DNA of 62,104 nucleotides, filler included, from Pirum gemmata (taxonomy: Eukaryota), in NCBI GenBank assembly GCA_002812295.1. It is 12 parts of 12 records of this genome, joined end to end, with 100 filler letters (N's around TTAATTAATTAA, not from the genome) between each part and the next. Parts side by side here need not be neighbours in the genome. Positions count along the whole stretch, not along the records: positions 37,052 to 41,653 come from PDIN01001043.1; 11 more parts are not named here. One strand, written 5' to 3'. Positions 37,453-37,756 of this stretch are shown here, piece by piece (position 1 is the stretch's first letter; every line of letters begins with the position of its first letter). The notes under the pieces were generated by a model that saw nothing but the letters and a program-made list of their open reading frames with translations, was not told the DNA's origin and searched no databases. A program made the translations under genes and the position numbers.

Positions 37453-37756
37453 TTAAAATTCAATTAAAAACTGCCCATCCAGATAATCACATCCTCCCTT
37501 ACAGCAAGTCATATTTGCTACACCAGAAACACCGAGGTTGGACAAACACACTTTATTGTACGATAAGTGACCTGGGTTAGGGTTAGGGTTAGGGTTAGGG
37601 TTAGGGTTAGGGTTAGGGTTAGGGTTAGGGTTAGGTACCATTACAGTGTGCAGGAAGTTTTTTTCCACACTCTGCCATTGAAGAGGGAGCAGCATCTATA
37701 ATTGCAAAAGTGGAACAAATAAGCACTAGAATAGAGCAAAAGGGGAAGGAAAACAT
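37453..37756 (-). CDS. 78-aa secreted Cys-rich peptide; exons 37756-37639 and 37571-37453 separated by a telomeric-repeat intron
   Basis: Spliced product MFSFPFCSILVLICSTFAIIDAAPSSMAECGKKLPAHCNGHLSYNKVCLSNLGVSGVANMTCCKGGCDYLDGQFLIEF; exons total 237 nt. Confidence 0.75.

What the first reader, a model, noticed from the sequence alone, without database searches (positions are those of the whole stretch)
37572..37638. 67-nt spliceosomal intron built almost entirely of telomeric repeats
Seen on the minus strand: AATG|GTA-CCTAA-(CCCTAA)n-CCCAG|GTCAC. Removing it joins a signal-peptide exon to a Cys-rich exon in frame (78 aa); retaining it gives an immediate stop. Every repeat junction contains CTAAC, the canonical branch-point core, and both junctions read G|GT. 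Inference: intron gain by telomeric-repeat (telomerase-like) insertion at a proto-splice site, or telomeric replacement of an older intron. This would be an unusual route to new introns.
Basis: partly seen in the sequence, partly recalled or inferred. Interest (0 to 1): 0.8.

Follow-up and report, generated by a model that had tools for sequence, protein, structure and literature searches.

The report
Candidate intron built from telomere repeats
A 67-base run of chromosome-end (telomere) repeats with splice signals at both edges interrupts a predicted small secreted-protein gene of an unidentified AT-rich eukaryote, and is likely an intron that arose when a broken gene was patched with telomere repeats, though no RNA or relative was available to prove either step.

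Summary
At 37638-37572 (minus strand), 62 of 67 bases are pure CCCTAA repeat, and the other five are exactly the splice signals (GTA, AG). Removal gives a 78-residue signal-peptide/cysteine ORF; retention stops it at 41 residues. Random joins rarely give such an ORF (10 of 400,000; criteria set afterwards). Telomeric arrays are common here (10 in 62 kb), but only this one has both splice edges. Two others sit between 33- and 7-base direct repeats, as insertions at staggered breaks would. Splicing is unproven: no RNA run was listed, and no genome or homologue was found. A motif scan of metagenomes found 27 similar loci in GC-rich eukaryotes. In one kinase gene, precise removal of two inserts gives a natural protein at 233/233 identity. 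The scan has reported such introns before in three other genomes. Ten literature searches found no description. Against gain by insertion: the 3-base repeat is what ordinary splice consensus also gives, an in-frame donor lies 6 bases upstream, and an overwritten older intron is not excluded. Verdict: likely a real intron, probably born by telomeric insertion; a new variant of intron gain during break repair.

The parts
37572..37638 (-). Candidate 67-nt GT-AG intron; 62 of 67 nt in CCCTAA phase
37574..37635 (-). Perfect 6-nt-period telomeric array (62 nt), C-rich strand on the gene's sense strand
37576..37580 (-). Last CTAAC, predicted branch-point core, 4 nt before the intron end; same spacing as CTAAT..TAG in a predicted ordinary intron ending at 19732
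   Evidence: branch-point consensus recalled; use not shown
37639..37756 (-). Exon 1: ATG, hydrophobic N-terminus (max 11-residue Kyte-Doolittle mean 2.81; predicted signal peptide), Cys30 and Cys38; GC 0.40
37453..37571 (-). Exon 2: 38 codons plus stop, Cys48, 62, 63, 67; GC 0.38 against 0.21 downstream
37637..37639 (-). Upstream copy of the 3-nt direct repeat GGT (donor junction)
37570..37572 (-). Downstream copy of the 3-nt direct repeat GGT (acceptor junction)
37639..37644 (-). Alternative in-frame GT donor at 37644 (would give a 73-nt intron, 76-aa product)
37768..38377 (+). Context: (AAT)n tract, then a frameshifted Ty1/copia-like RT-RNase H fragment whose truncated end lies about 45 nt upstream of the ATG
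   Evidence: ORFs; copia label recalled from motifs, not confirmed by Pfam, PDB or NCBIfam
31215..31360 (+). Comparison: telomeric array 31246-31322 between two copies of a 33-nt direct repeat (starting 31215 and 31328)
36414..36524 (.). Comparison: telomeric array 36421-36517 between two copies of a 7-nt direct repeat (starting 36414 and 36518)

Best explanation
The 67-nt segment is likely a spliced U2-type intron that probably arose when telomeric repeats were inserted at a staggered break inside a predicted small secreted cysteine-rich protein gene. Shown: the anatomy, the restored frame, and direct-repeat-flanked telomeric arrays elsewhere in this window. Inferred: break repair duplicated the 3-nt target GGT. 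The upstream copy gives the GT donor, and the downstream copy with one added A gives the AG acceptor. The C-rich strand of the repeat supplies CTAAC branch cores and a pyrimidine-rich tract. Such an insert would be removed without changing the protein and so would escape purifying selection, whereas other telomeric inserts in exons would be lethal to the gene. Telomerase as the enzyme is inferred from the vertebrate literature, not tested.
For: (1) The only 5 bases off the repeat phase are the splice dinucleotides plus the A at +3. (2) Random-join null: 391 of 400,000 joins give an ORF with a hydrophobic start and 10 of 400,000 also the cysteines; edge chance is about 0.015. Exon GC is 0.40 and 0.38 against 0.28 and 0.21 in the flanks. 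(3) Of 10 arrays (7 with both flanks readable), only this one has GT and AG at both edges, and none of the others was seen to split a comparable ORF (read). (4) Arrays between 33-nt and 7-nt direct repeats in the same window match the staggered-break signature described for interstitial telomeres (PMC7215372, passages). (5) The predicted ordinary introns of a neighbouring gene are 217-827 nt and 43-52% T, against 16% T here, so no remnant of an old intron body is visible. (6) The class exists elsewhere: 27 metagenome loci. In L006 two inserts split a kinase domain at Pfam position 97 and further on, and removing them with one repeat copy each gives 233/233 identity to database protein P0002.
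Against: No spliced read and no orthologue or paralogue were available (the two hits are sums over repeats of unrelated proteins). The codon score is unremarkable: exon 1 at the 56th and exon 2 at the 86th percentile of 779 stop-free stretches. The direct repeat is only 3 nt, against 4-24 nt in 18 motif-matched metagenome blocks, and G|GT is favoured at any intron. One base at each end is neither target nor in telomeric phase, while 77.5% of the ITS loci tabulated in PMC7215372 have at least one base in register (passage). With the alternative donor at 37644 the G|GT symmetry disappears. A copia-like fragment ends about 45 nt upstream of the ATG, so the gene may have lost its promoter. In the metagenome loci the strand bias of clean registers was only suggestive: 9 against 3 of 16, Fisher p 0.066, and 16 against 9 of 23 in a looser test.
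Confidence: 0.55

Rival explanations
1. It is a real spliced intron but an old one. Its branch-point motif seeded slippage or telomeric conversion, and the repeat overwrote everything except the splice signals.
For: The genome is saturated with expanding microsatellites, hexamers included. A predicted ordinary intron ends with CTAAT at the same spacing from AG. The 3-nt G|GT repeat needs no insertion. The ends are out of telomeric phase.
Against: The predicted ordinary introns are T-rich and 217-827 nt, and no T-rich remnant is left. The array is perfect, so young. Other arrays in the window carry long direct repeats that slippage would not explain.
Confidence: 0.2
2. A telomeric insertion knocked out a dispensable or already dead gene. 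The GT and AG edges are coincidence and the transcript, if any, is not spliced.
For: No expression data. A retroelement-like fragment abuts the start. Another secreted-looking gene in the window is frameshifted (6212-7132), so dead genes persist. Arrays are frequent.
Against: Clean edges arise by chance about 1.5% of the time. Both exons are free of stops and frameshifts.
Confidence: 0.17
3. There is no gene: the assembler joined two unrelated sequences through the repeat, or the flanks are chance ORFs.
For: The window is 12 short contigs and three arrays abut gaps. No homologue was found and the codon score is weak.
Against: Random joins give such an ORF in 10-391 of 400,000 draws, and the splice edges would be needed as well. 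GC rises over both exons only. The array is 62 nt, shorter than usual short reads (general knowledge).
Confidence: 0.08

Closest known systems
Short interstitial telomeric sequences inserted during double-strand-break repair in mammals (PMC7215372, passages read)
   Same: A short perfect TTAGGG/CCCTAA array at an internal site. Direct duplication of the target occurs there (3 of 66 horse loci as sole change) and here at 31215/31328 and 36414/36518.
   Different: None of the human ITSs lay in exons, and those in introns lie inside pre-existing introns. Here the array is the whole intron and supplies the predicted branch point. Those cases were shown with empty orthologous sites; none is available here.
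[quoted passage not shown]
   Same: A filler between short direct repeats that supply the splice sites; precise gain without protein change.
   Different: The filler here is telomeric repeat, which carries CTAAC in every unit. The review has no occurrence of 'telomer'. Gain is not shown for this intron.
Introners, intron-generating transposons (as described in PMC12730881, passage; target-site detail recalled)
   Same: An insertion whose ends and target duplication give splice sites, repeated at many loci.
   Different: No terminal inverted repeats and no unique internal sequence. The inserts differ in length and junctions, so they do not look like copies of one element.
Telomeric-repeat introns noted earlier by this scan in other genomes (e1-7377132, e1-7377310, e1-7127101; unchecked AI notes)
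   Same: Same anatomy: a short intron made mostly of telomere repeats, with target-site-like duplication in two of them.
   Different: Here the host is AT-rich (29% GC), the duplication is only 3 nt, and splicing could not be checked.

Membership tests
U2-type spliceosomal intron | GT donor and YAG acceptor | tested here: met
   GTA..CAG
U2-type spliceosomal intron | Branch-point motif near the acceptor | tested here: met
   CTAAC 4 nt before the end; trivially present in every repeat unit
U2-type spliceosomal intron | Removal restores a reading frame | tested here: met
   78 aa against 41 aa; null
U2-type spliceosomal intron | Absent from mature RNA | not testable with these tools
   No RNA holder listed, so no reads could be laid
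U2-type spliceosomal intron | A homologous protein aligns across the junction | tested here: inconclusive
   No homologue found
Break-repair interstitial telomeric insertion | Short perfect array of the host's telomere unit | tested here: inconclusive
   Perfect 62-nt array. The host telomere unit is not established; two contigs begin with the C-rich strand, as a chromosome end would
Break-repair interstitial telomeric insertion | Empty orthologous site or allele | not testable with these tools
   No genome or relative held
Break-repair interstitial telomeric insertion | Repair scar (target duplication, added bases) | tested here: inconclusive
   3-nt direct repeat plus one off-phase base at each end; not separable from splice consensus
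Break-repair interstitial telomeric insertion | Target bases in register with the repeat at the priming end | tested here: not met
   The base next to the array at the acceptor end is out of phase. The feature is common, not universal (77.5%, PMC7215372)
Introner | Family of similar unique-sequence introns with terminal inverted repeats | tested here: not met
   Simple repeat throughout, no inverted ends

The most novel reading that the evidence does not exclude
Telomere healing is a general, recurring generator of spliceosomal introns. The C-rich strand of TTAGGG is a ready-made string of branch points, so any insertion at a staggered break whose duplicated target holds a G|GT-like site is spliced out at once. 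This AT-rich lineage would be a further independent host beside the GC-rich marine eukaryotes, where several such inserts interrupt a single conserved gene and insert-free versions of the same protein exist.
Probability: 0.45. Interest if true: 0.85.

Novelty: new variant of a known kind. Interest (0 to 1): 0.6.

Why it matters
Most newly gained introns have no identifiable source sequence (PMC3443670, passage). An intron made of telomere repeat names its source and makes the break-repair model directly testable. It predicts C-rich-strand bias on the sense strand, target duplications that hold the splice sites, presence/absence alleles, and dependence on telomerase and end-joining. It also explains the Pro-Asn and Thr-Leu runs that contaminate predicted proteins of some marine eukaryotes. 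For this single locus the payoff depends on RNA evidence that was not available.

Tried and rejected
RNA: no RNA holder was listed for 37150-38450, which is no evidence either way; no reads could be laid. No whole genome is held, so the genome-wide count and strand bias could not be done. Homologues of the gene: none for exon 2 among proteins of 44-140 aa, in Pfam or NCBIfam for either exon, in the Atlas (best score 0.75), within the window or among scan notes by sequence. The two HMMER hits are repeat proteins whose scores add up over 17 and 5 weak stretches and were rejected. Exon 1 was not searched against the large protein databases. No fold was attempted, since there is no alignment and the spliced product is not a contiguous stretch. 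Lineage: a search with ORF 6445-6927 returned only the window's own protein, so the organism stays unidentified. No Rfam match in the window. The unspliced 80-aa frame with a Pro-Asn run (37453-37695) was considered and set aside: it leaves the signal-peptide frame unexplained. The copia-like neighbour could not be confirmed (the Atlas gave no answer). Literature: ten searches listed no paper that describes introns made of telomere repeats. Passages of PMC8226300, PMC11347835, PMC10288648, PMC6726248, PMC13685798, PMC6410037 and PMC12730881 had none. The library lacks most subscription papers and no supplements were read, so a description may exist.

Full report
Observation. The minus-strand segment 37638-37572 is 67 nt, begins GTA and ends CAG. 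Against a pure CCCTAA phase it differs only at positions 1-3 and 66-67. Removing it joins an ATG at 37756 to a stop at 37453 in a 78-residue frame with a hydrophobic N-terminus and six cysteines after residue 22; retaining it stops the frame after 41 residues. A 3-nt direct repeat, GGT, lies at both junctions; of the four equivalent removal registers one reads GT..AG. A second GT donor 6 nt upstream (37644) keeps the frame and all six cysteines, so the exact 5' boundary is open.

Setting. The window is 12 short contigs joined by N linkers, 29% GC and rich in microsatellites. No genome is held and the organism was not identified. An earlier scan note calls it a probable single-celled relative of animals (e1-9893649); I did not test that. 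Telomeric arrays are common: 10 with three or more perfect units, three of them against gaps. Only the candidate has GT and AG at both edges. Two arrays sit between direct repeats of 33 and 7 nt, the pattern expected when repeats are put into a staggered break (PMC7215372, passages).

Is the gene real? No homologue was found, and the codon score is weak (56th and 86th percentile of 779 stretches). In favour: GC is 0.40 and 0.38 over the exons against 0.28 and 0.21 outside. Of 400,000 random joins of window sequence, 6,049 gave an ATG frame of this length, 391 with a hydrophobic start and 10 with the cysteines; the criteria were chosen after seeing the gene. Tight splice edges have a chance of about 0.015 per array. 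A real gene with a chance-edged insert remains possible. A fragment that looks like a Ty1/copia element (label recalled from motifs, unconfirmed) ends about 45 nt upstream of the ATG and may have cut off the promoter.

Ordinary introns here. A neighbouring Arg/Ser-rich gene joins in frame through predicted GT-AG introns of 217-827 nt with 43-52% T (11 candidate joins over three gaps, not verified by homology or RNA). One candidate ends CTAAT-GTAG, the same spacing as the candidate's CTAAC-CCAG. The candidate therefore fits local splice usage but has 16% T and no remnant of an ordinary intron body.

The class elsewhere. One motif scan of metagenome contigs returned 27 loci, GC 0.50-0.73. Many carry several telomeric blocks inside coding sequence, some head-to-head. 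In L006 a kinase domain is cut three times. Pfam positions run 2-97 before the first insert and 97-154 after it (6 stretches from 3 loci scanned). Removing the first two inserts, each with one copy of its 13- or 18-nt direct repeat, gives 233/233 identity to database protein P0002. P0003 and P0004 lack all three inserts, while P0005, P0007 and P0008 read into the first. Whether P0002 comes from RNA or from an empty allele is not shown; either way exact removal occurs in nature. For an unbiased tally I dropped five near-copies (L017, L018, L021, L025, L026) and the motif-matched blocks. Of 35 remaining blocks, 16 had an exact direct repeat of 8 nt or more, and 9 of those gave a G[TCA]..YAG register on the motif strand against 3 on the opposite strand (Fisher p 0.066). 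A looser test gave 16 against 9 of 23, from 37 blocks. The bias is suggestive only. Two Pro-Asn-rich hits carry Phaeocystis antarctica labels, and P. globosa has 64.6% GC and CCCTAA telomeres (PMC11347835, passages). A haptophyte origin of some loci is a lead, not shown.

Mechanism. Most likely (0.55): telomeric repeats entered a staggered break in the gene, the duplicated GGT gave the donor and most of the acceptor, and the C-rich strand gave the branch point, so the insert is spliced out with no change to the protein. The anatomy is shown; splicing, gain and telomerase are inferred. Against it, the repeat is only 3 nt, one base at each end is off phase, and the alternative donor removes the symmetry. 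Rivals: an old intron overwritten by repeat (0.2), an unspliced knock-out (0.17), a misjoin or chance frame (0.08).

Novelty. Both halves are known: telomeric insertion at breaks (PMC7215372) and intron gain during break repair (PMC3443670, passages; no mention of telomeres). Ten searches listed no paper that joins them; subscription papers and supplements were not seen. This scan has noted the same kind of intron in three other genomes (unchecked notes). My metagenome evidence was gathered before I saw those notes, but probably overlaps the marine loci they mention. Class: new variant of a known kind. Interest 0.6: the route would be surprising and testable, but this instance lacks RNA and an empty site.

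Noticed in passing
L001:923-1046: A Ku-domain gene (Pfam Ku_N before, Ku barrel after), itself an end-joining factor, is interrupted by a head-to-head telomeric block ending in CAG.
   Followed up: partly
L006:676-831 and L006:1067-1145: The most plausible clean registers of the two kinase inserts have GA and GC donors rather than GT, so these hosts may accept non-GT donors.
   Followed up: partly
L003, L005, L012, L015, L024: Inserts with G-rich repeats first and C-rich repeats last, as expected if both broken ends were extended and then rejoined.
   Followed up: no
window 31215-31360: Telomeric array between two copies of a 33-nt direct repeat: a clear target duplication, with no ORF of 80 aa or more listed there.
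   Followed up: partly
window 12390-16954: Two similar LRR-transmembrane genes in inverted orientation on one contig (Pfam LRR_8 for the first), with short fragments between them that resemble a viral primase-helicase (recalled; no Pfam hit).
   Followed up: no
window 26270-26617 and 28996-29423: Two near-identical secreted-looking genes in inverted orientation on one contig.
   Followed up: no
window 44654-47312 and 57963-59864: Genes of giant-virus type (origin label recalled): EsV-1-7 repeats, a Cas12f1/TnpB-like ORF, an ExoX-like ORF and a poly(A) polymerase catalytic subunit.
   Followed up: no
window 6212-7132: A secreted-looking gene spread over three overlapping frames; an imperfect duplication of about 11 nt lies at the first shift. 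No relatives found.
   Followed up: partly
window 17344-19959 (minus): Arg/Ser/Asp-rich gene with at least three predicted T-rich GT-AG introns.
   Followed up: partly
window 5281-6150: Tandem array with a 101-127-nt unit.
   Followed up: no
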